Source: Alkalibaculum bacchi (GTDB lineage Bacteria > Bacillota > Clostridia > Eubacteriales > Alkalibacteraceae). From it: a DNA stretch of 32,000 nucleotides. The notes beneath the pieces are model-generated. The model was not told where the DNA came from. It made no database searches and worked only from the letters and a program-made list of their open reading frames with translations. The position numbers and the translations under genes are program-made. The DNA lies in the NCBI RefSeq assembly GCF_003317055.1, contig NZ_QNRX01000001.1:93641-125640 (forward strand), written 5' to 3'. Positions 3,579 to 30,775 of this stretch are shown here, in pieces (the first letter of the stretch is position 1; every line of letters starts with the position of its first letter).

Positions 3579-3772
3579 GATGATGGTTGGACGGTTGGAC
3601 GGGAAAAAGCAGAAAGCTGAATGCTGAAAGCGGAAAACTCGCCTTTGGGCGAGAAAAGGACCCATGCTTATGATAATTTAATTCCTAGATCCTTCGTCGC
3701 AAGCTCCTCAGGATGACCGTGTAGTAGCTAGAGGCTCAATAGAGATTCGCAGACGATTGCTTTCTAGCTACT
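3579..3772 (+). repeat. Mosaic intergenic element copy F
   Basis: GGTTGGACGGTTGGAC comes first. Four heptamers follow (GCAGAAA GCTGAAT GCTGAAA GCGGAAA, 3609-3636). The CTCGCC-tttg-GGCGAG hairpin lies at 3638-3653. The mini-core GATCCTTCGTCGCAAGCTCCTCAGGATGACCGTGTAG lies at 3688-3724. A 10-bp hairpin AGTAGCTAGA/TCTAGCTACT spans 3723-3772. Confidence 0.8.
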
Positions 3773-4963: not shown

Positions 4964-4984
4964 TTGTTCTCCTTTCGTCAATAA

Positions 4985-5029
4985 GCGGAAAGCAGAAAGC
5001 AAAAAGCCGAAAAAGCAATTTGCTTTCTG
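4985..5029 (+). repeat. Heptamer word array (GCGGAAA GCAGAAA GCAAAAA GCCGAAAAA) with a CAGAAAGCA/TGCTTTCTG stem
   Basis: Period-7 units were read directly, between the MetH-like stop and the tsaE start. Confidence 0.7.
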
Positions 5030-7308: not shown

Positions 7309-7400
7309 ATGTGCCTTGGTTGCTAGTCATTAGTTTCTAGTCACTAGCACTAATGTATTTCTTTAGGGTCTAAATGCTTCATTTACGCTTAAGTGTCTAA
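7309..7400 (+). repeat. Mosaic intergenic element copy H
   Basis: The heptamers TAGTCAT TAGTTTC TAGTCAC TAGCACT lie at 7324-7351. GTATTTCTTTAGGGTC follows, related to the GTATTCCTTTTGGGTC module. Confidence 0.7.
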
Positions 7401-7489: not shown

Positions 7490-8077
7490 TTATTTATGTA
7501 ATATAGGAGATACTTTTTTATACATTAACATAGTGATAATAGAAATACCTAAAGTTTTTAATATATTAAATGGTGTAATTCCGTATAATATTAATGTTAA
7601 ATAGTCTTTTATAGCCGGATTCACTACAGAGCCCATTCCTACAATTGCTTCCATTGGCATCATGGTCTCGTAAAATGGAAGAGTAATATAATAGTTTACA
7701 AATCCTGCAATGATAATCATGCTTATGGCTCCTACTGTCAATCCAGTAATTGCATTTTTCTTTGTTTTCTCACGTTTATAAATCATTCCTATAGGAATGA
7801 CCCAAGCACAACCTATAAGGAAGTTTGCCAATTGTCCTACCCCACCTGTTTCCGATCCTTTTACAATAAGATGCAAAATATTTTTGATGAACTCGATAAG
7901 TACACCAGCTACTGGACCCATAGAAAAAGCACCTAGTATAGCGGGAATATCGCTGACATCAATTTTTAAAAACGCTGGAAATAACATAGGAATAGGAAAA
8001 TCAATATACATTAAAATAAATGCAATTGTACTGAGAACTGCTATTCTCACCAAATATTTTGTTTTGTTGCTAGCCAT
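7490..8077 (-). CDS. ribU: ECF transporter S component, riboflavin (RibU-like)
   Basis: The 195-aa product is a multi-pass membrane protein. It sits downstream of an FMN riboswitch on the same strand. Confidence 0.75.
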   Translation of the reverse strand: MASNKTKYLVRIAVLSTIAFILMYIDFPIPMLFPAFLKIDVSDIPAILGAFSMGPVAGVLIEFIKNILHLIVKGSETGGVGQLANFLIGCAWVIPIGMIYKREKTKKNAITGLTVGAISMIIIAGFVNYYITLPFYETMMPMEAIVGMGSVVNPAIKDYLTLILYGITPFNILKTLGISIITMLMYKKVSPILHK

Positions 8078-8126
8078 AATAAAGCCTCCTTAAATTATAA
8101 TTGGAATAATTACTCTCATGTGGATA

Positions 8127-8259
8127 AGAAAGCGCCTTCGGCACTTTAGTCGTTCATCTTTAATCCTTAGCATTCGGGCATTCCTTTTGGGTCAAAATCC
8201 TTCGCTTGCGCTCAGGATGACTAGGAAAGAGCTAGGTCAAAAGTGGGACTTTCGTATTC
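8127..8259 (+). repeat. Mosaic intergenic element copy A (full core)
   Basis: The AAAGCGCC-ttc-GGCACTTT hairpin lies at 8129-8147. The core spans 8176-8259 and reads GGGCATTCCTTTTGGGTCAAAATCCTTCGCTTGCGCTCAGGATGACTAGGAAAGAGCTAGGTCAAAAGTGGGACTTTCGTATTC. Confidence 0.85.
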
Positions 8260-8261
8260 AA

Positions 8262-8445
8262 TAAAAAACCAGCTCTCAATTACTCAAGGGCTGGTTTTAT
8301 ACTAACTTAATATTAACGTAAGTCAAATATTAATCCTCTCTCATCCAGACTTTACTGTCGGTCTTGGAATTGCACCAAGTCAACCTAAAAAGGCTCGCGG
8401 ACTTTACCGCCGGTCGGGAATTGCACCCTGCCCTGAGAATTTAAT
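8262..8445 (-). ncRNA. FMN (RFN) riboswitch with intrinsic terminator
   Basis: The minus strand reads TTCTCAGGGCAGGGTGCAATTCCCGACCGGCGGTAAAGTCCGCGAGCC...GGTTGACTTGGTGCAATTCCAAGACCGACAGTAAAGTCTGGATGAGAGAG, which matches the RFN consensus. A CCAGCCCTT...AGAGCTGG hairpin plus a T-run follows at 8262-8296. Confidence 0.9.
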
Positions 8446-8500: not shown

Positions 8501-8599
8501 AACTATAGTCGAACGGTTGTTTTTTAACAGTAGTTAAACCATTGTTGAACAGTCGCTAGACAGTAGTCAAACAATGGCTTAACCATAGTTTAACTATCG
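8501..8599 (+). repeat. 11-nt periodic array (9 units, consensus about TTnAACnrTnG)
   Basis: The units are aactatagtcg aacggttgttt tttaacagtag ttaaaccattg ttgaacagtcg ctagacagtag tcaaacaatgg cttaaccatag tttaactatcg. The array lies between the tex stop and the ribU promoter. Confidence 0.8.
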
Positions 8600-8604
8600 T
8601 CCCA

Positions 8605-10758
8605 CTATTGCTCTTCTTTCATACTAAGTGAAATTCGTCCTCTCTCTACGTCTACTCCTATGACTCTTACTTTGACAATATCGCCTACTGCCACTACATC
8701 CATAGGGTTTCTGACAAATTTATCGCTTAATTGTGAAATGTGCACTAATCCATCTTGATGTACTCCTATATCTACAAAAGCGCCAAAGTCAATTACATTA
8801 CGTACAGTTCCTGTCAGTACCATACCTTCTTTAAGGTCTTTTACTTCCATTACTTCTGTCTTAAAGATTGGTCTATCGAATTCATCTCGAGGATCCCTTC
8901 CTGGTTTTTGAATTTCTTTTAGGATATCCACAAGGGTTAGCTTTCCAATGGACAAATCATTAGAGAACTGTTCTATATTTACCTTACTAAAGGCTTTACC
9001 TATTTCAGAATATTTTGTTCGTATATCTTCAATTTTATAATTGAAATGATCTAAAAGCCTTATTGCATCTTCATAAGATTCTGGATGCACGGCAGTATTA
9101 TCTAAGGGATTTTCGCCTTCTGAAATCCTTAAAAAGCCTGCCGCTTGTTCAAAAGCCTTGTCCCCAATTTTTTTTACCTTTTTTATGGTAGCTCTATTTG
9201 TAAAAGGACCATTTTCTCTTCTATATTCAATAATATTTTGAGCAGTTGTATTGTTAAGACCAGAAATATTTTTTAAGAGAGACACAGACGCTGTATTAAT
9301 ATCTACTCCAACGCTGTTCACCACGTCTTCAATGACTCCATCTAATGATTTTTGAAGCTCTTTTTGATTTACATCGTGTTGATATTGTCCTACTCCTATG
9401 TGCTTTGGATCGATCTTTACCAATTCAGCTAAGGGATCTTGTAATCTTCTAGCAATAGAAATAGCTCCTCTTAAAGATACATTGATATCTGGAAATTCTT
9501 CATTGGCTAATTTTGATGCAGAATATACAGATGCCCCTGCTTCATTGACTACTAGGTATTCTACTTTTAAATTGTTCTTCTTAATAAAACCTGCCACAAT
9601 GATTTCTGATTCCCTAGAAGCCGTTCCATTTCCTATAGCAATTAATGTAATAGCGTGGTTTTTGACAAGGCGTAAAAGGGTCTTTTCAGATTCTTCAATC
9701 TTATTCTCAGGAGCAGTAGGATAGATCGTAGCCGTATCTAAAAGTTCTCCAAATTCATCTACTACAGCTAGCTTGCAACCTGTACGAAAGGCTGGATCAA
9801 AGCCTAAAACCACCCGACCTTTTACTGGTGGCTGCAATAAATAGTTCTTTAAATTAGTGGCAAATACCTTTATAGCTTCTTTTTCCGCTACTTCAGTAAG
9901 GGTAGAACGGATTTCTCGCTCTATTGAAGGAAAAATAAGTCTCTTATAAGAGTCTTTTATAGCATCTATCATAAATTGATTTGTGTGTTCATTTAAGAGT
10001 TTGCTGTTTAAATACTGCAAAATTCTTTCTTCATCCATCTGAACCTTTACATTCAGTATGCCTTTTTTCTCTCCACGATTCGTTGCTAGTACTCGATGAT
10101 TTGCAATTTTATTTACTTTTTCAGAGAAATCGTAGTACATCTCAAATTCTGTGATCTCTTCCTGCGATTTCTTCGAGTAAGTGGATGTAAGAAAACCATA
10201 TTCAAAGACGAATTCACGAATCTTTTTACGATACTCAGCCTCATCAGATATATCCTCAGCTATAATATCCATAGCTTTGATTACAGCGTCTTCTCCAGTT
10301 TCAATTTTCTTTTCAAGATCAATGTATTTCTTACCTTCTTGAAGAATCTCTTCATCTGTGGATATTTGCAGTCGAATAAGCGTAGCGAGTGGCTCTAAAC
10401 CTAATTCTCTAGCTATAACGGCCCTAGTCTTTCGTTTTTGCTTATACGGAAGGTATAAATCCTCAACTTCTTGGAGGATTCCCGCCATTTCGATTTTTTT
10501 AGTTAGTCCATCTGTCAATTTACCCTGGTTTTCAATAGAACGGAGGACTTCTTCTTTTCGTTTTTCTAAATGCCTTAAATACATTAATCTTTCATCTAAT
10601 TCACGAAGAGTAACATCATCTAAATTTCCAGTGGCTTCCTTGCGATATCTAGCAATAAAAGGAATCGTATTTCCCTCGTCGATGAGATGAATTGTAGTCT
10701 CGACTTGATTTCTTTTTATATTAAATTCTTTTGTAATTTGTTCTATAATCTTATTCAA
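8605..10758 (-). CDS. tex: Transcription accessory protein Tex (S1 RNA-binding domain protein)
   Basis: The 717-aa product has a Tex N-terminal region (IPFIARYRKEATG), a YqgF/RuvC-like middle region, HhH motifs and a C-terminal S1 domain (GTVRNVIDFGAFVDIG). Confidence 0.9.
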   Translation of the reverse strand: MNKIIEQITKEFNIKRNQVETTIHLIDEGNTIPFIARYRKEATGNLDDVTLRELDERLMYLRHLEKRKEEVLRSIENQGKLTDGLTKKIEMAGILQEVEDLYLPYKQKRKTRAVIARELGLEPLATLIRLQISTDEEILQEGKKYIDLEKKIETGEDAVIKAMDIIAEDISDEAEYRKKIREFVFEYGFLTSTYSKKSQEEITEFEMYYDFSEKVNKIANHRVLATNRGEKKGILNVKVQMDEERILQYLNSKLLNEHTNQFMIDAIKDSYKRLIFPSIEREIRSTLTEVAEKEAIKVFATNLKNYLLQPPVKGRVVLGFDPAFRTGCKLAVVDEFGELLDTATIYPTAPENKIEESEKTLLRLVKNHAITLIAIGNGTASRESEIIVAGFIKKNNLKVEYLVVNEAGASVYSASKLANEEFPDINVSLRGAISIARRLQDPLAELVKIDPKHIGVGQYQHDVNQKELQKSLDGVIEDVVNSVGVDINTASVSLLKNISGLNNTTAQNIIEYRRENGPFTNRATIKKVKKIGDKAFEQAAGFLRISEGENPLDNTAVHPESYEDAIRLLDHFNYKIEDIRTKYSEIGKAFSKVNIEQFSNDLSIGKLTLVDILKEIQKPGRDPRDEFDRPIFKTEVMEVKDLKEGMVLTGTVRNVIDFGAFVDIGVHQDGLVHISQLSDKFVRNPMDVVAVGDIVKVRVIGVDVERGRISLSMKEEQ

Positions 10759-10776: not shown

Positions 10777-10891
10777 TAGTCTCTAGTCAATAGTCATTAG
10801 TCACTAGCTTGCATGTATTCCTTTTGAGTCTTATATGCTACCTTCGGGTAACTAAGTGCTAGAGACTAGGGTCTAATGACTAAAGACTAGC
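10777..10891 (+). repeat. Mosaic intergenic element copy I (long hairpin with heptamer arms)
   Basis: The left arm is TAGTCTC TAGTCAA TAGTCAT TAGTCAC TAGC (10777-10808). The right arm GTGCTAGAGACTAGGGTCTAATGACTAAAGACTAGC (10856-10891) is its imperfect complement. The loop carries GTATTCCTTTTGAGTC and GCTACCttcgGGTAAC. Confidence 0.8.
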
Positions 10892-18136: not shown

Positions 18137-18378
18137 TTCAACAACTCCTAAATTATAGATATATATAATGATACCATTAAAATACCATATAATGATATAA
18201 AAAAACACAAATCATTAAAAAATATTCTAATAAATATACAGCTATATGCAGTCAAATAGAAAATTTAAGTTTATACTATATGAATGATAGTTGAACGATG
18301 ATAAATAGTAGTTAGGTGATTACTTAAAATATTGAAAACAGGTACGTTTAGATTTTTATAGTTAGTGCATTTCACAAG

Positions 18379-18491
18379 AAAGTGCCATGGGGTGTATTAG
18401 TCTCTAGCGTATTCCTTTTGGGTCAAGATTCTTCGCTTGTGCTCAGGATGACTGGGTAGGAGCCCATGTCAAAAGTAGGACTTTCCTATTA
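18379..18491 (+). repeat. Mosaic intergenic element copy B (full core)
   Basis: AAAGTGCCATGG comes first. The core then reads GTATTCCTTTTGGGTCAAGATTCTTCGCTTGTGCTCAGGATGACTGGGTAGGAGCCCATGTCAAAAGTAGGACTTTCCTATTA. Confidence 0.85.
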
Positions 18492-18500
18492 CATTACATC

Positions 18501-18547: not shown

Positions 18548-19075
18548 TTAGATGGTCGGCTCGATTAATCCGTAATTGCCATCTTTTCTCTTATATACTA
18601 CATTTACTTCATCGCTTTCACTATTTAAGAAAACGAAAAAATTATGTCCTATTAAATCCATTTGAAGAGAAGCTTCTTCTGGTGACATCGGCTTTATTGG
18701 GAATCTCTTTGTCTTTACAATTCGATTTTCTTCTTGATTGTTACCACTTTCAGGAATAGAGTCGAATCGAATAGTAGCTTGTTCTTTGTATTTTCTTTCA
18801 ATTTTTGTTTTATGTTTCCTTAGTTGTCCTTCTAATTTATCAACAACTTTATCGATAGAGCCATACATATCGTCAGTAGCTTCCTCAGCTCTCAAAAAAG
18901 AACCATTAATTTTAATTTGTACTTCTAAAATATGCATATTCTTTTGAGTACTAAGAGTTGCAGTTGCTTCCACCTCAGGAACGAAGTATTTGTCGAGCTT
19001 AGACAATTTCTTTTCCAACATATTTCTTAACCCTTCAGTTACTTCGATATTCTTCCCATATACTATTACTCGCAT
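18548..19075 (-). CDS. hpf: Ribosome hibernation promoting factor (long HPF/RaiA family)
   Basis: The 175-aa product begins MRVIVYGKNIEVTEGLR and has a C-terminal dimerisation region (FFVFLNSESDEVNVVYKRKDGNYGLIEP). Confidence 0.9.
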   Translation of the reverse strand: MRVIVYGKNIEVTEGLRNMLEKKLSKLDKYFVPEVEATATLSTQKNMHILEVQIKINGSFLRAEEATDDMYGSIDKVVDKLEGQLRKHKTKIERKYKEQATIRFDSIPESGNNQEENRIVKTKRFPIKPMSPEEASLQMDLIGHNFFVFLNSESDEVNVVYKRKDGNYGLIEPTI

Positions 19076-19210
19076 AATAACAACTCCTTTAAGAAAATAT
19101 AGTGATTAGTTAGTATTATTATTATACCCCTAAAGAATATGACAAAACATTTTTGTTTGTAGTAAATACTTCATTATATAAAAGGAAATTATTGGTAAAT
19201 TTAAAAATTA

Positions 19211-19328
19211 GGTGGACAGGTAGTCTGAAAAAAAGCTGAATGCGGAAAGCGGAAAGCGGAAAAAAACTCGCTGTAGGCGAGGTTGTGTAGGATCCTTCGT
19301 CGCTTCGCTCCTCAGGATGACTATGTAG
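19211..19328 (+). repeat. Mosaic intergenic element copy G, co-linear with copy F
   Basis: GGTGGACAGGTAGTCTG is followed by the heptamers GCTGAAT GCGGAAA GCGGAAA GCGGAAA (19235-19262). The CTCGCtgtagGCGAG hairpin comes next. The mini-core is GATCCTTCGTCGCTTCGCTCCTCAGGATGACTATGTAG (19291-19328). Confidence 0.8.
19267..19281 (-). terminator. Hairpin plus T7 run, a possible terminator for the upstream ncRNA transcript
   Basis: The minus strand reads CTCGC-ctaca-GCGAG followed by TTTTTTT (plus A-run 19260-19266). The stem is short (5 bp). Confidence 0.4.
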
Positions 19329-19390
19329 AAAATTATATTATAGTAGAAATTAGTACCTTAATGATAACTTTAAAATCGTTTTTTAGATAC

Positions 19391-19445
19391 TTAAACAATT
19401 GTTTAACTACCGTTTAACCATTGCTCAACAATCGTTTAACAACTG
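19391..19445 (+). repeat. 11-nt periodic array (5 units)
   Basis: The units are ttaaacaattg tttaactaccg tttaaccattg ctcaacaatcg tttaacaactg. The first unit is identical to the last unit of the 30544 array. Confidence 0.8.
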
Positions 19446-19484
19446 TTTTTACTTACAACTTAAAGCTTAAAACGTAGAACTATT

Positions 19485-19692
19485 ACCGCCTTAGCTGACC
19501 TGGTCTTTGCCCCCACACTCGCCAGCTGGAAGTTTAGCTAGGGTTCGCCTTCACAACTCCTTCTCTCAATTTCTTAATTGGCTGGTCTTACATCTAAGCC
19601 GCACCATGCTCAGTATGCTCTTTTGGCTTACCTTACGTGGATCGTTTTGCCTGCGACTGGCATCGATTTTCAACCACAGACCTAAGGCGTCC
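19485..19692 (-). ncRNA. Candidate structured ncRNA of about 205 nt, possibly raiA-motif class
   Basis: It is a GC-rich island in AT-rich DNA. Nested helices can be drawn on the minus strand. The closing stem pairs CGCCTTAG (RNA 5' end, plus 19682-19689) with CTAAGGCG (3' end, plus 19487-19494). Internal stems are TGTGG/CCACG, ATCG/CGAT, TGCC/GGCA, TAAGCC/GGCTTA, CCAGC/GCTGG, CAATT/AATTG and GGAGTT/AACTtCC. A consensus promoter lies immediately upstream, and the element sits upstream of hpf/raiA. Confidence 0.55.
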
Positions 19693-19727: not shown

Positions 19728-20064
19728 ATGAAAGTGCCAAGGCACTTTATCGATCAGCAACCAGCCGCCAGTCACCTGTACTCTCGGGCTAAGCTTTGCG
19801 GGTCAAAGATCCTTCGCTAGCGCTCTAGGATGACTCGGCAGTTGCTAGGGCCAAAAGCGTATGTTTCCTAGTATAGAAAGCATATGCCACCAAAGGTAGC
19901 TTGTCTGTTTTGCTGACCACGTGGGAGTAATACCCGATTTATCTAGCCCGAAGAATAAGAGAAATCGAGTGGCATTACCCCTGTCAAGGTGGGCAGGTTT
20001 GTAGCGACTAGAAGGAGCTAGAAACCCGCAACCTACGACAGACCACCTGACCACCTGACCACCT
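19728..20064 (+). repeat. Composite mosaic element copy C
   Basis: The AAAGTGCCaaGGCACTTT hairpin lies at 19730-19747. The heptamers are AGCAACC AGCCGCC AGTCACC. The core variant is GGGTCAAAGATCCTTCGCTAGCGCTCTAGGATGACTCGGCAGTTGCTAGGGCCAAAAGCG. A GCCACCAAAGGTAGC module follows, then an extended imperfect hairpin of about 90 nt (19911-19999). The element ends with GACCACCT x3 (20041-20064). Confidence 0.75.
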
Positions 20065-20108
20065 TATCAATCTTGTAAACGAGCACATTCTCATTTTCTG
20101 TGTTTTAG

Positions 20109-21121: not shown

Positions 21122-21140
21122 AGAAGAAGCTTCAATATTT

Positions 21141-21203
21141 TAGCCATCAGCCACCAGCCACTAGTGCTCTAAGCCAGGGGCTTGGGTCAAAAGTAACACC
21201 TGC
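21141..21203 (+). repeat. Mosaic element copy E, lacking the CCTTCGC..CAGGATGAC insert ('empty site')
   Basis: The heptamers AGCCATC AGCCACC AGCCACT AGTGCTC come first. CCAGGGGCTTGGGTCAAAAGTAACACC follows, with a single GGTCAAAAG where copies A-D have two flanking an insert of about 45 nt. Confidence 0.7.
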
Positions 21204-21244
21204 ATATAAAATGGCTCAAATAGTTGCATTTTCTCAAAGTAGCA

Positions 21245-21296
21245 AAACAGAGACAAAGGGGACAGATTTATAAATCTGTCCCCTTTGTCTCTGTTT
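21245..21296. terminator. 52-nt perfect palindrome, a bidirectional terminator between convergent fba and the radical SAM gene
   Basis: AAACAGAGACAAAGGGGACAGATTTA and its exact reverse complement TAAATCTGTCCCCTTTGTCTCTGTTT abut each other. A/T runs sit at the stem base. Confidence 0.6.
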
Positions 21297-25280: not shown

Positions 25281-25399
25281 CTAGTGACTAGCCATTAACC
25301 GCTAGTCACTAGTATCATGGTATTCCTCTAGGGTCCTTTTGCTATCAAAGGTAGCATTACGGTTTTTGGTTTTAAGATTTAGCTTACCACCTTATGTAG
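25281..25399 (+). repeat. Mosaic intergenic element copy J
   Basis: The 12-bp perfect hairpin CTAGTGACTAGC-cattaacc-GCTAGTCACTAG begins right after the PP2C stop. GTATTCCTCTAGGGTC and GCTATCAAAGGTAGC follow. Then GGTTTTAAGATTTAGCTTACCACCTTATGTAG parallels 30657-30685. Confidence 0.75.
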
Positions 25400-25402
25400 A
25401 AC

Positions 25403-25451
25403 GATATAAGGGACGATTTCACACGATTTGATGAAATTCGTCCCTTATATC
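25403..25451. other. Strong stem-loop of about 18 bp in a long convergent intergenic region
   Basis: GATATAAGGGACGATTTC pairs with GAAATTCGTCCCTTATATC (one bulge) around a 12-nt loop. No flanking T-run is present on either strand. Confidence 0.6.
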
Positions 25452-25795
25452 TTGTACTCAATCTCCATGCAATTTCCTTCCTGAAGCTAATCTTCCAAGG
25501 TGTGGTTTTATTAAAGATCAATCTATACTTTTAAGTGGTCACGCGTTACCTCTAATCCACTCCATAATGTAAACAGTTTAGACTACTTCCTAATTCCGTT
25601 TTAGGTTCCTTAATAATCCTTAAAGATTATTGGAGGATTCATCTGCTTATTTACCTACTGCTATTTTATAGATTAGCTTAAAAGCTTTGATTATCTTTTT
25701 ATGAAACCTGTTACCTTGTACTGATAATATACCCTATTTTTTGAGGATTAAACACAATATTTTATTTTTGGAGTTAAAAACATCTACAAGGTTTT

Positions 25796-25968
25796 AGCCA
25801 TCAGCTGCCAGCTATTAGTCACTAGTCTTTAGTCCCTAGCATTAGGGGATTCCTTTTGGGTCAAGATCCCTCGCTTGCGCTCAGGATGACCGGGTAAGAG
25901 CCAATGTTAAAAGCAGAGATTTCCTATTAAAAAACACTAGCGACTCTTGACTAGCCGCTAGTGACTAA
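25796..25968 (+). repeat. Mosaic intergenic element copy D (full core with inverted heptamer arms)
   Basis: Seven heptamers span 25796-25844 (AGCCATC AGCTGCC AGCTATT AGTCACT AGTCTTT AGTCCCT AGCATTA). The core is GGGGATTCCTTTTGGGTCAAGATCCCTCGCTTGCGCTCAGGATGACCGGGTAAGAGCCAATGTTAAAAGCAGAGATTTCCTATTA. The inverted arm is CACTAGCGACTCTTGACTAGCCGCTAGTGACTA (25936-25968). Confidence 0.85.
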
Positions 25969-30543: not shown

Positions 30544-30620
30544 TTGAACAGTAGTTAAACGATCTTGAAACCATAGTTGAACAATGGTTGAGCAATAGTT
30601 AAACGATGGTTAAACAATTG
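30544..30620 (+). repeat. 11-nt periodic array (7 units) directly upstream of the Crp/Fnr start codon
   Basis: The units are ttgaacagtag ttaaacgatct tgaaaccatag ttgaacaatgg ttgagcaatag ttaaacgatgg ttaaacaattg. The array ends 14 nt from the ATG at 30530. Confidence 0.8.
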
Positions 30621-30629
30621 TATTAGACT

Positions 30630-30740
30630 CTCGCCTACGGCGAGTTCAACTTTAAAGGTTTTAAAATTTTGCTTACCACCTTACCACCTTACTACCTTAC
30701 TACCTTACCACCTGACCACCTGACTACCTGACTACCTTAA
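30630..30740 (+). repeat. CTCGCC-tac-GGCGAG hairpin plus an 8-unit octamer array
   Basis: The octamers at 30672-30735 are CTTACCAC x2, CTTACTAC x2, CTTACCAC, CTGACCAC, CTGACTAC x2. Only positions 3 (T/G) and 6 (C/T) vary. Confidence 0.85.
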
Positions 30741-30741
30741 C

Positions 30742-30775
30742 GAAAAAAACACGAAATCATCTCTGATTCGTGTTT
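30742..30775 (-). terminator. Intrinsic terminator after the tRNA
   Basis: The minus strand reads AACACGAAtcagagatgaTTTCGTGTT followed by TTTTTT. Confidence 0.75.

What the first reader, a model, noticed from the sequence alone, without database searches (positions are those of the whole stretch)
8190..8242. Nested mini-element flanked by an 8-nt direct repeat, with an apparent empty site at 21181-21200
In copy A the segment TCCTTCGCTTGCGCTCAGGATGACTAGGAAAGAGCTA (8198-8234) is flanked by a perfect direct repeat, GGTCAAAA, at 8190-8197 and 8235-8242. Copies B, C and D show the same arrangement in degenerate form (GGTCAAGA/TGTCAAAAG, GGTCAAAG/GGCCAAAAG, GGTCAAGA/TGTTAAAAG). Copy E (21141-21203) has the left and right flanks fused as CTTGGGTCAAAAGTAACACC, with one GGTCAAAAG and no insert. 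In copy G the same mini-core is flanked by TGTGTAG / TATGTAG. This is the signature expected for a tiny insertion element with target-site duplication sitting inside a larger repeat. The alternative is deletion by recombination between the direct repeats.
Basis: inference. Interest (0 to 1): 0.65.

Follow-up and report, generated by a model that had tools for sequence, protein, structure and literature searches.

The report
REP-type hairpin nested in mosaic repeat
The small segment is one copy of a short hairpin repeat (REP-like) found across many bacterial phyla, sitting inside a larger intergenic repeat of an Alkalibaculum-like genome; the 8-base repeat beside it is more likely inherited architecture than an insertion scar, so this is a new member of a known kind of element.

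Summary
TCCTTCG...GAGCTA (8198-8234) is flanked by a perfect GGTCAAAA repeat, degenerate versions flank three more copies, and 21181-21200 has one GGTCAAAAG and no core.

- **The core is an independent unit.** The same ~28-nt hairpin (GTC-ATCCT-GA-GCGNAGC-GA-AGGAT-CT on the minus strand) occurs with unrelated flanks in at least 240 loci from many phyla and viral contigs. Its stem covaries. It forms tag-outside inverted dimers and tandem arrays, and no gene recurs beside it.
- **It belongs to a known kind.** By description it fits the CGTC/TGTC-tagged REP superfamily (Di Nocera 2013). Some REP families in that paper also sit inside larger repeats, and in one genome the REP-less target occurs as well.
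- **A model built only from other phyla finds exactly six copies in the window**, all on the minus strand.
- **Target-site duplication is not supported.** 310 copies elsewhere show no abutting repeats above control. The left repeat overlaps the unit's own conserved AGA. The five composite copies are paralogues, so they count as at most one event.
- **No clean 45-nt presence/absence was seen.** Of five orthologous sites, two were conserved and three had whole intergenic cassettes swapped.

Copy E is a core-less version of the mosaic. Whether it arose by insertion or deletion is unresolved.

The parts
8193..8223 (-). REP-type hairpin, copy A. Minus strand reads tAGTC-ATCCT-GA-GCGCAAGC-GA-AGGAT-TTT.
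   Evidence: R1 model, 32.1 bits, E=1.9e-6. Conserved in three other contigs. It lies between the FMN riboswitch terminator and the start of the ECF-transporter gene.
8190..8197 (+). Left GGTCAAAA repeat of copy A. GGTCA can pair with the hairpin's TGAC, and the last 3 nt lie where the unit's conserved AGA sits.
8224..8234 (+). Tail of the unit in this genome (GGAAAGAGCTA). The consensus after GAC is YGKGTAGNAGCYAG. The tail is shared by composite copies and by G-type copy 1.
   Evidence: Read from the sequences and the alignment.
8235..8242 (+). Right GGTCAAAA repeat of copy A. It is the start of the right arm, CAAAAGT-GGG-ACTTTCG, which is itself a small hairpin.
8120..8262 (+). Mosaic composite A, made of an upstream GC hairpin, heptamers, the left arm ATTCCTTTTGGGTC, the hairpin with its tail, and the right arm.
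   Evidence: Repeat families D3, D4, D11 and the alignment.
18424..18454 (-). REP-type hairpin, copy B, with one stem mismatch. The mosaic spans about 18366-18494.
   Evidence: R1 23.9 bits, E=2.7e-4. The whole mosaic is absent from sister contigs L128-131 and L133, and present with a changed core in L132.
19805..19836 (-). REP-type hairpin, copy C. The mosaic spans about 19745-19870 and has CAGC-type heptamers upstream.
   Evidence: R1 22.7 bits, E=5.6e-4.
25862..25892 (-). REP-type hairpin, copy D. The mosaic spans about 25784-25932.
   Evidence: R1 28.1 bits, E=2.1e-5. Conserved in five other contigs.
21130..21212 (+). Copy E, the mosaic without the hairpin. It has CAGC heptamers, then ...AGGGGCTTGGGTC joined to AAAAGTAACACC...
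   Evidence: Families D6 and D11; pairwise alignments. The site is replaced by unrelated repeats in L002-L004.
3685..3719 (-). REP-type hairpin, G-type copy 1. It has an extra GA-GA module and unrelated flanks.
   Evidence: R1 27.7 bits, E=2.7e-5.
19288..19323 (-). REP-type hairpin, G-type copy 2, between the raiA RNA and hpf.
   Evidence: R1 26.5 bits, E=5.5e-5.
7324..7371 (+). Left-arm module (heptamers plus ATTTCTTTAGGGTC) joined to a different right-hand sequence. Similar modules lie at 10784-10831 and 25289-25336.
   Evidence: Family D4.

Best explanation
The 37-nt segment is a REP-type hairpin (about 28-31 nt) followed by a short tail specific to this genome.

**Anatomy of the hairpin.** The structured strand is the minus, purine-rich one. 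It reads: an unpaired (N)GTC tag; a stem of up to 5 pairs that begins A, T (four covary; the outermost is unpaired in about a quarter of copies); a tandem G.A/A.G block in Y-GA-R context; a GCGNAGC or GCGNNAGC mini-hairpin; and a C(T/C)N tail. These features are shown.

**Family.** It belongs to, or is very close to, the CGTC/TGTC-tagged REP superfamily. This is inferred from the published description only.

**How it spreads (inferred).** Such units probably spread as single-stranded DNA hairpins, handled by an enzyme acting in trans that has not been identified. They leave no target duplication. They accumulate in non-essential intergenic spacers as singletons, as inverted dimers with the tags outside, and as arrays.

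**Setting in this genome.** In this Alkalibaculum-like genome one such unit became part of a modular mosaic of about 90-160 nt. The mosaic was then copied, so the GGTCAA(A/G)A ... (G/T)GTCAAAAG repeat is inherited mosaic architecture. GGTCA on either side is complementary to the hairpin's own TGAC end. A related metagenomic copy extends the repeat into the unit itself, which points to a partial tandem duplication.

**Copy E.** E is a hairpin-less version of the mosaic. It arose either before the hairpin joined, or by slippage or recombination between the two GGTCAA repeats. This is unresolved.
For: **Identity of the unit**
- The same unit occurs in at least 120 genome loci across many phyla and at least 120 viral contigs.
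- Its boundaries are A-G-A ... A, and the flanks beyond them are random.
- A model built from foreign copies finds six hits in the window, E = 2e-6 to 6e-4, all on the minus strand. The next hit is at E = 0.69.

**Structure**
- The stem covaries: ATCCT/AGGAT, ATTCT/AGAAT, ATGCT/AGCAT, ATTCC/GGAAT, ATCCC/GGGAT, ATTTC/GAAAT, ATGTT/AACAT, GTCCT/AGGAC.
- 93.6% of cells are paired. 22 cells changed on both sides, against 3.6 +/- 1.6 in shuffles (0 of 500 reach it), and slid controls give 5 or fewer.
- The loops are GCGNAGC or GCGNNAGC, the described ultra-stable DNA mini-hairpins (PMC13037366).

**REP-like organisation**
- The tag is TGTC in 74% and CGTC in 18% of copies. The tail is CTN in 71% and CCN in 16%.
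- Tags-outside (HH) dimers number 66, against 17 tags-inside (TT) and 16 tandem (HT). The median spacer of HH dimers is 29 nt (HH is defined).
- A tandem array with 87-nt period occurs in L214, and inverted pairs occur in L204.
- About 80% of copies are intergenic, and sites between divergent genes are rare.
- No protein family recurs beside the copies.
- All of this matches the published description of CGTC REPs, including the lack of a dedicated transposase. Some REP families (GTAG-15, GTAG-23, CGTC-1) are also reported nested inside larger palindromes, with REP-less targets found in one genome (GTAG-23 in T. roseum) (PMC3733652).

**Against a target duplication**.

**Repeat extends into the unit**: in L274 it is GTCAAGATCC / GTCAAGATCC.

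**Mosaic modularity**: left-arm modules are joined to other sequences, and there are two kinds of upstream module.
Against: - Window copies carry AGTC or GGTC rather than CGTC or TGTC.
- The published CGTC consensus sequences are in figures that are not held, so sequence-level membership is untested.
- Nearest-neighbour folding is unremarkable (z from -1.5 to +1.5). The mini-hairpin review says such models do not capture these motifs.
- No mobilising enzyme was found, and no movement was observed.
- Orientation is uniform here (7 of 7 on the G-rich, gene-sense strand). In the wider set the orientation is mixed and leans the other way, so a simple lagging-strand-template rule does not hold.
- A wider-window test shows a small excess of flanking repeats of 7 nt or more (13 against 3.8 +/- 2.0). 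L218 has a 10-nt abutting repeat.
Confidence: 0.6

Rival explanations
1. A tiny element of about 37 nt inserted into a GGTCAAAA(G) site of a pre-existing larger repeat and duplicated 8 nt of target. Copy E is the unoccupied site.
For: - Copy A has a perfect 8-nt abutting repeat, and E has a single copy of it.
- The core plus tail recurs in a different context at 3685-3732, flanked there by CTAGA/CTAGA.
- One foreign copy (L218) has a 10-nt abutting repeat.
- There is a small excess of nearby repeats of 7 nt or more in a wide window.
Against: - Across 310 foreign copies there is no excess of abutting repeats.
- The left repeat overlaps the unit's conserved AGA.
- Copies A-D and the fifth copy are paralogues with homologous flanks, so they amount to one event at most.
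- The G-type repeats are 5 nt, and 5-nt repeats occur in about 15% of mismatched-partner controls.
- No clean filled/empty polymorphism was seen at five orthologous sites.
- REP and IS200/IS605-type mobilisation makes no target duplication (established knowledge; PMC3333891 abstract).
Confidence: 0.12
2. Copy E is derived. A filled mosaic lost the 45-nt segment by replication slippage or recombination between the GGTCAA(A/G)A and GGTCAAAAG repeats. Alternatively, a larger internal deletion left part of the core and the tail.
For: - Short direct repeats around a hairpin are the classic substrate for slipped-strand deletion (established knowledge).
- E is the only hairpin-less copy among six mosaics in 50 kb.
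- A multiple alignment aligns E's GTGCTC and GCCAGGGGCTTGG with the core's 3' half and the tail.
- The hairpins are mutation hot spots.
Against: - The best pairwise alignments (with D and C) favour a simple junction of left flank and right flank.
- Polarity cannot be set without an outgroup, because E's site is replaced outright in the sister lineage.
Confidence: 0.35
3. The hairpin is chiefly a functional RNA element, such as a transcript stabiliser, processing site or protein-binding site in untranslated regions. It would be kept by selection rather than spread as mobile DNA.
For: - In the window all copies put the structured strand in the sense of the flanking genes.
- Copy A lies inside the 5' leader of the riboflavin-transporter gene, between the riboswitch terminator and the ribosome-binding site, and is conserved.
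- G-type copy 2 lies between the raiA RNA and hpf.
- GNRA-type loops and tandem G.A pairs are also RNA motifs. The REP paper argues that many REPs act as RNA.
Against: - Orientation relative to genes is mixed in 240 other loci.
- Inverted dimers and tandem arrays are frequent.
- No Rfam family matches.
- The GNA triloop form is the DNA-favoured mini-hairpin.
- Copy B and G-type copy 2 are dispensable in sister strains.
Confidence: 0.15

Closest known systems
CGTC/TGTC-tagged REP superfamily (Di Nocera, De Gregorio and Rocco 2013, PMC3733652). It includes Neisseria dRS3 and Rickettsia RPE-4 and RPE-6.
   Same: - Short intergenic stem-loop with an unpaired (C/T)GTC tag at one end.
- Stem starting with A, T, and a short C-rich tail.
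- Tags-outside dimers predominate.
- Spread over distant phyla.
- No dedicated transposase.
- Some REP families, including one CGTC-1 case, sit inside larger palindromic repeats; REP-less targets are reported for one GTAG family.
   Different: - Here the nine-position stem contains a tandem G.A block.
- The loop is a 3-4-nt GNA or GNNA mini-hairpin, not 4-5 nt.
- The tail is mostly CTN rather than CCA.
- Window copies have AGTC or GGTC.
- The paper reports five phyla and none of Bacillota, Acidobacteriota, Chloroflexota or the candidate phyla radiation.
- The published consensus sequences could not be compared.
GTAG REPs, REPINs and BIMEs, mobilised by RAYT (TnpA-REP) Y1 transposases
   Same: - Hairpin with a conserved unpaired tetranucleotide at its foot.
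- Singletons, inverted doublets and alternating arrays.
- Intergenic location and no target duplication.
- Presumed single-stranded DNA substrate.
   Different: - The tag is GTC(A), not GTAG.
- No RAYT or other gene recurs beside the copies.
- The sequence is nearly identical across phyla, whereas GTAG REPs are lineage-specific.
Neisseria intergenic mosaic elements (NIMEs, built on dRS3) and E. coli BIMEs
   Same: A REP-type unit interleaved with other short repeat modules, in large variable intergenic mosaics that differ between strains.
   Different: The partner modules here are tandem heptamers, octamers and 11-mers plus small arm hairpins. None of these was matched to a described family.
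IS200/IS605 elements and their miniature derivatives
   Same: Hairpin-guided single-strand transposition next to a short specific target, without duplication. The target and the element's own end can look like a direct repeat, and excision restores a single copy.
   Different: Those elements need hairpins at both ends. Here there is one hairpin, and the candidate sites are on the strand opposite its tag. No TnpA gene was seen.
Cyanobacterial small dispersed repeats nested in heptamer repeats and MITEs (Elhai et al. 2008). This is recalled from memory; the paper is not held.
   Same: Very small units (about 20-30 nt) nested inside larger repeats, in genomes whose spacers are full of tandem heptamers.
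   Different: Different phylum. The sequences were not compared, so this is a lead only.

Membership tests
CGTC/TGTC-tagged REP superfamily | Short (20-40 nt) repeated stem-loop, mostly intergenic | tested here: met
   Units are 27-36 nt. There are six good copies and one degenerate copy in 50 kb. About 80% of foreign copies are intergenic by crude gene calls.
CGTC/TGTC-tagged REP superfamily | Unpaired terminal tag CGTC (variants TGTC, CCTC) | tested here: inconclusive
   Foreign copies have TGTC in 74% and CGTC in 18%. The seven copies of this genome have AGTC or GGTC, so only GTC is kept.
CGTC/TGTC-tagged REP superfamily | Stem of 8-9 bp with complementary A and T in first and second position | tested here: inconclusive
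   The stem has nine positions and starts A, T. However, positions 6-7 are G.A/A.G mismatches, not Watson-Crick pairs. Four of the five outer pairs covary.
CGTC/TGTC-tagged REP superfamily | Loop of 4-5 nt | tested here: inconclusive
   The loop is GNA (3 nt) in most foreign copies and GNNA (4 nt) in the window's composite copies.
CGTC/TGTC-tagged REP superfamily | Three-nt unpaired tail, consensus CCA | tested here: inconclusive
   The tail is CTN in 71% and CCN in 16% of copies. CCA itself is seen in 7 of 391.
CGTC/TGTC-tagged REP superfamily | Tags-outside (HH) dimers predominant, TT rare, HT negligible | tested here: met
   HH 66, TT 17, HT 16 among neighbours within 120 nt.
CGTC/TGTC-tagged REP superfamily | No flanking dedicated transposase gene | tested here: met
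   1,603 ORFs lying within 1.2 kb of copies in 120 loci were clustered. The largest cross-locus cluster spans 3 loci.
CGTC/TGTC-tagged REP superfamily | Sequence match to the published CGTC-1 to CGTC-4 consensus | not testable with these tools
   The consensus sequences are in figures that are not held. The supplements hold no matching strings.
GTAG REP / RAYT system | GTAG tag at the hairpin foot | tested here: not met
   The tag is (T/C)GTC followed by A.
GTAG REP / RAYT system | A RAYT gene flanked by the REPs somewhere in the genome | not tested
   Only 50 kb of the source contig could be read. No Y1 transposase lies in it according to the Pfam labels of called genes.
   Abutting repeats equal the control in 310 copies, apart from L218. 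The composite copies share one inherited repeat.
   Five sites were compared. A and D are conserved. At B, E and G-type copy 2 whole cassettes are replaced, not a 45-nt segment.

The most novel reading that the evidence does not exclude
The 45-nt segment (AAGA + hairpin + tail, ending in (G/T)GTC) may be an active single-stranded mini-transposon.
- It would integrate immediately 3' of a GGTC target and end in the same motif, following IS200/IS605-style logic with no true duplication.
- The apparent direct repeat would then be the target plus the element's own end.
- Copy E would be an unoccupied or precisely excised site.
- The many module junctions at ...GGGTC in this genome would record the same cleavage-and-joining activity, which would also drive the wholesale turnover of intergenic cassettes.
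- That would give the 'orphan' CGTC/TGTC REPs a transposition mechanism and a testable target.
Probability: 0.12. Interest if true: 0.7.

Novelty: new member of a known kind. Interest (0 to 1): 0.4.

Why it matters
- **An open question about REPs.** REPs with the CGTC tag are the class for which no mobilising enzyme is known. How nearly identical 28-nt hairpins come to sit in distant phyla is unexplained.
- **Wider host range.** The unit appears in Clostridia, Acidobacteriota, Chloroflexota, candidate-phyla-radiation bacteria and viral contigs.
- **A structural reading.** The conserved core is a tandem sheared G.A block plus a GNA/GNNA mini-hairpin. This points to a single-stranded DNA structure as the selected object.
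- **A system to test movement.** Sister strains with identical genes but swapped intergenic cassettes are available, so movement, deletion or conversion of the unit could be looked for directly.
- **Practical use.** These hairpins and their mosaics generate spurious small ORFs, break assemblies and mark strain-level variation.

Tried and rejected
- **Rfam.** At gathering and at permissive thresholds, on the window and on five foreign loci, only generic hairpin noise overlapped the unit.
- **Pfam and NCBIfam** on translations of an array found nothing.
- **Literature searches** by DNA 12-14-mers and by the peptide strings the unit encodes returned only unrelated primers. The assembly and run accessions gave nothing. 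Elhai 2008 is not held.
- **A GIY-YIG or other fixed neighbour gene**, a lead from memory, is rejected: no protein family recurs near the copies.
- **Hammerhead-like reading of CUGA...GAA** is rejected: the NGA of the catalytic core is absent in the common form.
- **Thermodynamic support for the hairpin or the composite** is not significant.
- **Cultured phage and plasmid collections** gave no match among phages and one partial plasmid hit.
- **The metagenome scan with the 16-nt left arm** returned 119 chance hits and one true relative, L274. A longer pattern would have served better.
- **A lagging-strand-template orientation rule** fits the window but fails in the wider set.
- **Walking the source contig** was limited to about 9 kb on each side. 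One look-up failed because the ORF was a fragment of a longer gene.
- **Look-up for sister contigs at G-type copy 1** found none, only the source assembly.

Full report
**Setting.**
The window has 34.7% G+C. It matches contig RXYD01000002.1 of assembly GCA_008086585.1. Its HPF protein clusters at 90% or more with Alkalibaculum bacchi HPF, so the source is an Alkalibaculum-like member of the Eubacteriaceae.

Most genes lie on the minus strand. The plus strand has a G/C skew of -0.15 over 50 kb.

The spacers between genes are packed with short repeats: tandem heptamers, octamers, 11-nt periodic runs and small hairpins. Rfam finds a raiA RNA, an FMN riboswitch and a tRNA, and nothing at the finding.

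**Observation.**
The core pattern TCCTTCG-N-GCTC-N-AGGATGAC occurs four times exactly, against none in shuffles.

Joining the window to the neighbouring stretches of the same contig adds one more degenerate composite copy about 1.8 kb to the left, and no others.

**The core is an independent, widespread unit.**
One scan of species-representative genomes with the core pattern hit its 120-locus limit. The hits lie in Acidobacteriota, Chloroflexota, Bacteroidota, Verrucomicrobiota, Planctomycetota, candidate-phyla-radiation lineages, Gemmatimonadota, Nitrospirota, Omnitrophota, a cyanobacterium and many Clostridia. A scan of viral contigs also hit its limit.

Across 155 copies the conserved unit runs from A-G-A before TCCTTCG to an A after GATGAC. 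Beyond that the flanks are random.

I built a covariance model only from copies in other organisms. It finds exactly six hits in the window, all on the minus strand: 8193-8223, 25862-25892, 3685-3719, 19288-19323, 18424-18454 and 19805-19836, with E from 2e-6 to 6e-4. The next hit is at E = 0.69.

**Anatomy.**
On the purine-rich strand the unit reads (T/C)GTC-ATCCT-GA-GCGNAGC-GA-AGGAT-C(T/C)N.

- **Stem.** The five-pair outer stem covaries. Variants include ATTCT/AGAAT, ATGCT/AGCAT, ATTCC/GGAAT, ATCCC/GGGAT, ATTTC/GAAAT, ATGTT/AACAT and GTCCT/AGGAC. In a 47-sequence alignment 93.6% of cells pair. 22 cells changed on both sides, against 3.6 +/- 1.6 in shuffles (0 of 500 reach it). Sliding the partner by one to three columns gives 5 or fewer.
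- **Inner part.** It is a 5'-GA/GA-3' block in pyrimidine-GA-purine context, which from established knowledge favours tandem sheared G.A pairs. This is followed by GCGNAGC. In the window's composite copies it is GCGCAAGC, that is GCGNNAGC. These two are exactly the classes of extraordinarily stable DNA mini-hairpin reviewed in PMC13037366. That review also says ordinary thermodynamic models do not capture them. This fits my unremarkable folding z-scores.
- **G-type copies.** They carry a second GA/GA module.

**Organisation and neighbours.**
Of 396 copies in 240 loci, 181 lie within 120 nt of another copy. Inverted pairs with the tags outside number 66, with a median spacer of 29 nt. Tags-inside pairs number 17 and tandem pairs 16. 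L204 shows clean inverted pairs, and L214 shows a tandem array with an 87-nt period that alternates two stem variants.

Copies are mostly intergenic and rare between divergent genes. They show no consistent orientation relative to genes. Clustering 1,603 ORFs that lie within 1.2 kb of copies found no family shared by more than three loci.

**Comparison with the literature.**
Di Nocera et al. (PMC3733652) sort REPs into GTAG-tagged and CGTC-tagged superfamilies. They describe the CGTC class as follows:
- a tag often changed to TGTC;
- stems of 8-9 that start with A, T;
- loops of 4-5 nt and a 3-nt tail;
- predominance of tags-outside dimers;
- presence in distant phyla;
- no dedicated transposase;
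- identity with Neisseria dRS3 and Rickettsia RPE-4 and RPE-6.

Here the tag is TGTC in 74% and CGTC in 18% of copies, and the tail is CTN or CCN in 87%.

The same paper reports that some REP families sit inside larger palindromic repeats. REP-less targets are absent in two of the genomes it examined and abundant in a third, T. roseum, for the GTAG-23 family. That is the situation in this window.

I could not compare sequences, because the consensus figures are not held. Membership therefore rests on the described features. Several of these fit only loosely: the G.A pairs inside the stem, the shorter loop, and AGTC/GGTC in this genome.

**The larger repeat is a mosaic.**
Alignment of the composite copies shows these modules in order:
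1. an upstream GC hairpin (AAAG-YGCC-loop-GGCRC-TTT) or, alternatively, CAGC-type heptamers;
2. TAGTCAC-type heptamers;
3. the left arm ATTCCTTTTGGGTC;
4. the hairpin with a tail (YGKGTAGNAGCYAG, shared with the G-type copy at 3685-3732);
5. the right arm (G/T)GTCAAAAG-NGG-ACTTTCC, itself a small hairpin.

The left arm also occurs three times joined to other sequences, at 7324-7371, 10784-10831 and 25289-25336. Modules are therefore shuffled.

**Is the 8-nt repeat a target-site duplication?** The evidence is against it.
- Foreign copies show no excess of flanking repeats in a 14-nt window.
- They show no excess of abutting repeats. The one outlier is L218, with a 10-nt AAAAAAACCA on both sides.
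- A wider window gives a small excess: 13 copies with 7 nt or more, against 3.8 +/- 2.0. Part of this comes from tandem arrays and low-complexity flanks.
- The AAGA/AAAA half of the left repeat is where the unit's own AGA sits.
- The five composite copies share homologous flanks, so their repeats descend from one ancestor.
- GGTCA on each side is complementary to the unit's TGAC end. Predicted folds use the left one to extend the hairpin, and the right one to close a tail hairpin.
- In the one related metagenomic copy (L274) the repeat is GTCAAGATCC on both sides. It therefore includes the unit's first bases, as expected from a partial tandem duplication.

**Copy E.**
The best-scoring pairwise alignments (with D and C) join E's upstream heptamers and ...AGGGG-CTT-GGGTC to the left flank. 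E's downstream 20-25 nt is about 65% like the right arm. This supports reading E as a mosaic copy without the hairpin.

A multiple alignment instead pairs E's GTGCTC and GCCAGGGGCTTGG with the core's 3' half and the tail. That would make E an internally deleted copy. Insertion and deletion cannot be told apart from this evidence.

**Orthologous sites.**

| Site | Result in other contigs |
|---|---|
| Copy A | Conserved in three contigs |
| Copy D | Conserved in five contigs |
| Copy E | Contigs with an identical fba gene (0 of 930 nt different) carry an unrelated 122-nt cassette in place of window 21129-21250 |
| Copy B | Contigs with 9-10 differences in 528 nt of hpf lack the whole mosaic: 136 nt are replaced by 47 nt |
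| G-type copy 2 | In three of those contigs the 321 nt around it are replaced by 332 nt of other modules |

One contig (L128) is a recombinant of the two types. No site differs by just the 45-nt segment.

**Mechanism.**
- *Shown:* a covarying hairpin with a fixed tag and tail; REP-like dimers and arrays; intergenic location; no linked gene; no general target duplication.
- *Inferred:* the purine-rich strand folds as single-stranded DNA and is copied by a trans-acting enzyme, as proposed for REPs. The mosaic, once it contained the unit, was itself copied and recombined.

The uniform orientation here puts the structured strand on the G-rich strand, the one that by standard reasoning templates lagging-strand synthesis. 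This would suit a single-stranded DNA mechanism. The wider set, however, leans the other way (197 against 98), so I do not rely on it.

**Verdict.**
The finding is real. The element is best filed as a REP-type hairpin of, or next to, the CGTC/TGTC superfamily, nested in a lineage-specific mosaic. The target-duplication claim is not supported, and the origin of copy E is open.

Noticed in passing
window 21129-21250; 19166-19486; 18365-18500: Whole intergenic cassettes are replaced by unrelated repeat-built sequence in sister contigs. The flanking genes in those contigs are identical (fba, 0 of 930 nt different) or about 98% identical (hpf). One swap is length-neutral (122 nt for 122 nt), and one contig (L128) is a recombinant of both types.
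   Followed up: partly
window 18427-18452 and 25865-25890: Differences between strains concentrate in the hairpin cores. For copy B against L132 there are 5 differences in 26 nt, against 2 in 657 nt outside (Fisher p = 1e-6). For copy D, 2 of the 3 variable sites in 290 nt are in the core. One change restores a stem pair, as expected from hairpin-templated mutation or from conversion between copies.
   Followed up: partly
window 8527-8611, 19384-19446, 30548-30632: Runs of an 11-nt periodic repeat (ACNNTNGTTNA-like) occur in three spacers, in both orientations. A fourth related run lies about 7.3 kb left of the window.
   Followed up: no
window 30664-30743, 20039-20078, 110-130; also 3604-3637, 4980-5013, 19230-19263, 273-304: Tandem octamers (CTTACCAC/CTGACCAC) and heptamers (AAAGCGG/AAAGCTG) recur in many spacers, in either orientation. 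This resembles the short tandem repeats of filamentous cyanobacteria, but here it is in a member of the Clostridia.
   Followed up: no
window 8077-8444 and 19075-19690: Two regulatory RNAs are separated from their genes by repeat-filled DNA. The FMN riboswitch and its terminator are followed by mosaic copy A before the transporter gene starts. The raiA RNA lies about 410 nt upstream of hpf, with 11-mers, a hairpin copy and heptamers in between.
   Followed up: no
L214 8520-8980; L218 around 687-710: A viral contig carries a tandem array with an 87-nt period that alternates two stem variants of the hairpin. Another viral contig has a copy flanked by a perfect abutting 10-nt repeat, AAAAAAACCA. 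It is the only such case among 310 copies.
   Followed up: partly
240 loci L007-L126 and L141-L260: The purine-rich strand of the hairpin lies on the locally C-rich strand twice as often as on the G-rich strand (197 against 98, p about 1e-8). This is strongest in viral contigs and is the opposite of the orientation in the window. It is unexplained.
   Followed up: partly
window 25340-25780: About 440 nt between the convergent SpoIIE-domain and sulfite-reductase genes have no ORF of 80 aa or more and no Rfam hit. The whole 694-nt intergenic stretch containing them is identical in one other contig (L264). It holds a long hairpin at 25396-25457.
   Followed up: no
window 21245-21296: A perfect 31-nt-arm palindrome sits between the convergent fba and radical-SAM genes and probably acts as a two-way terminator. 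It is kept, with compensating changes, in the sister lineage even though the adjoining cassette is replaced.
   Followed up: no
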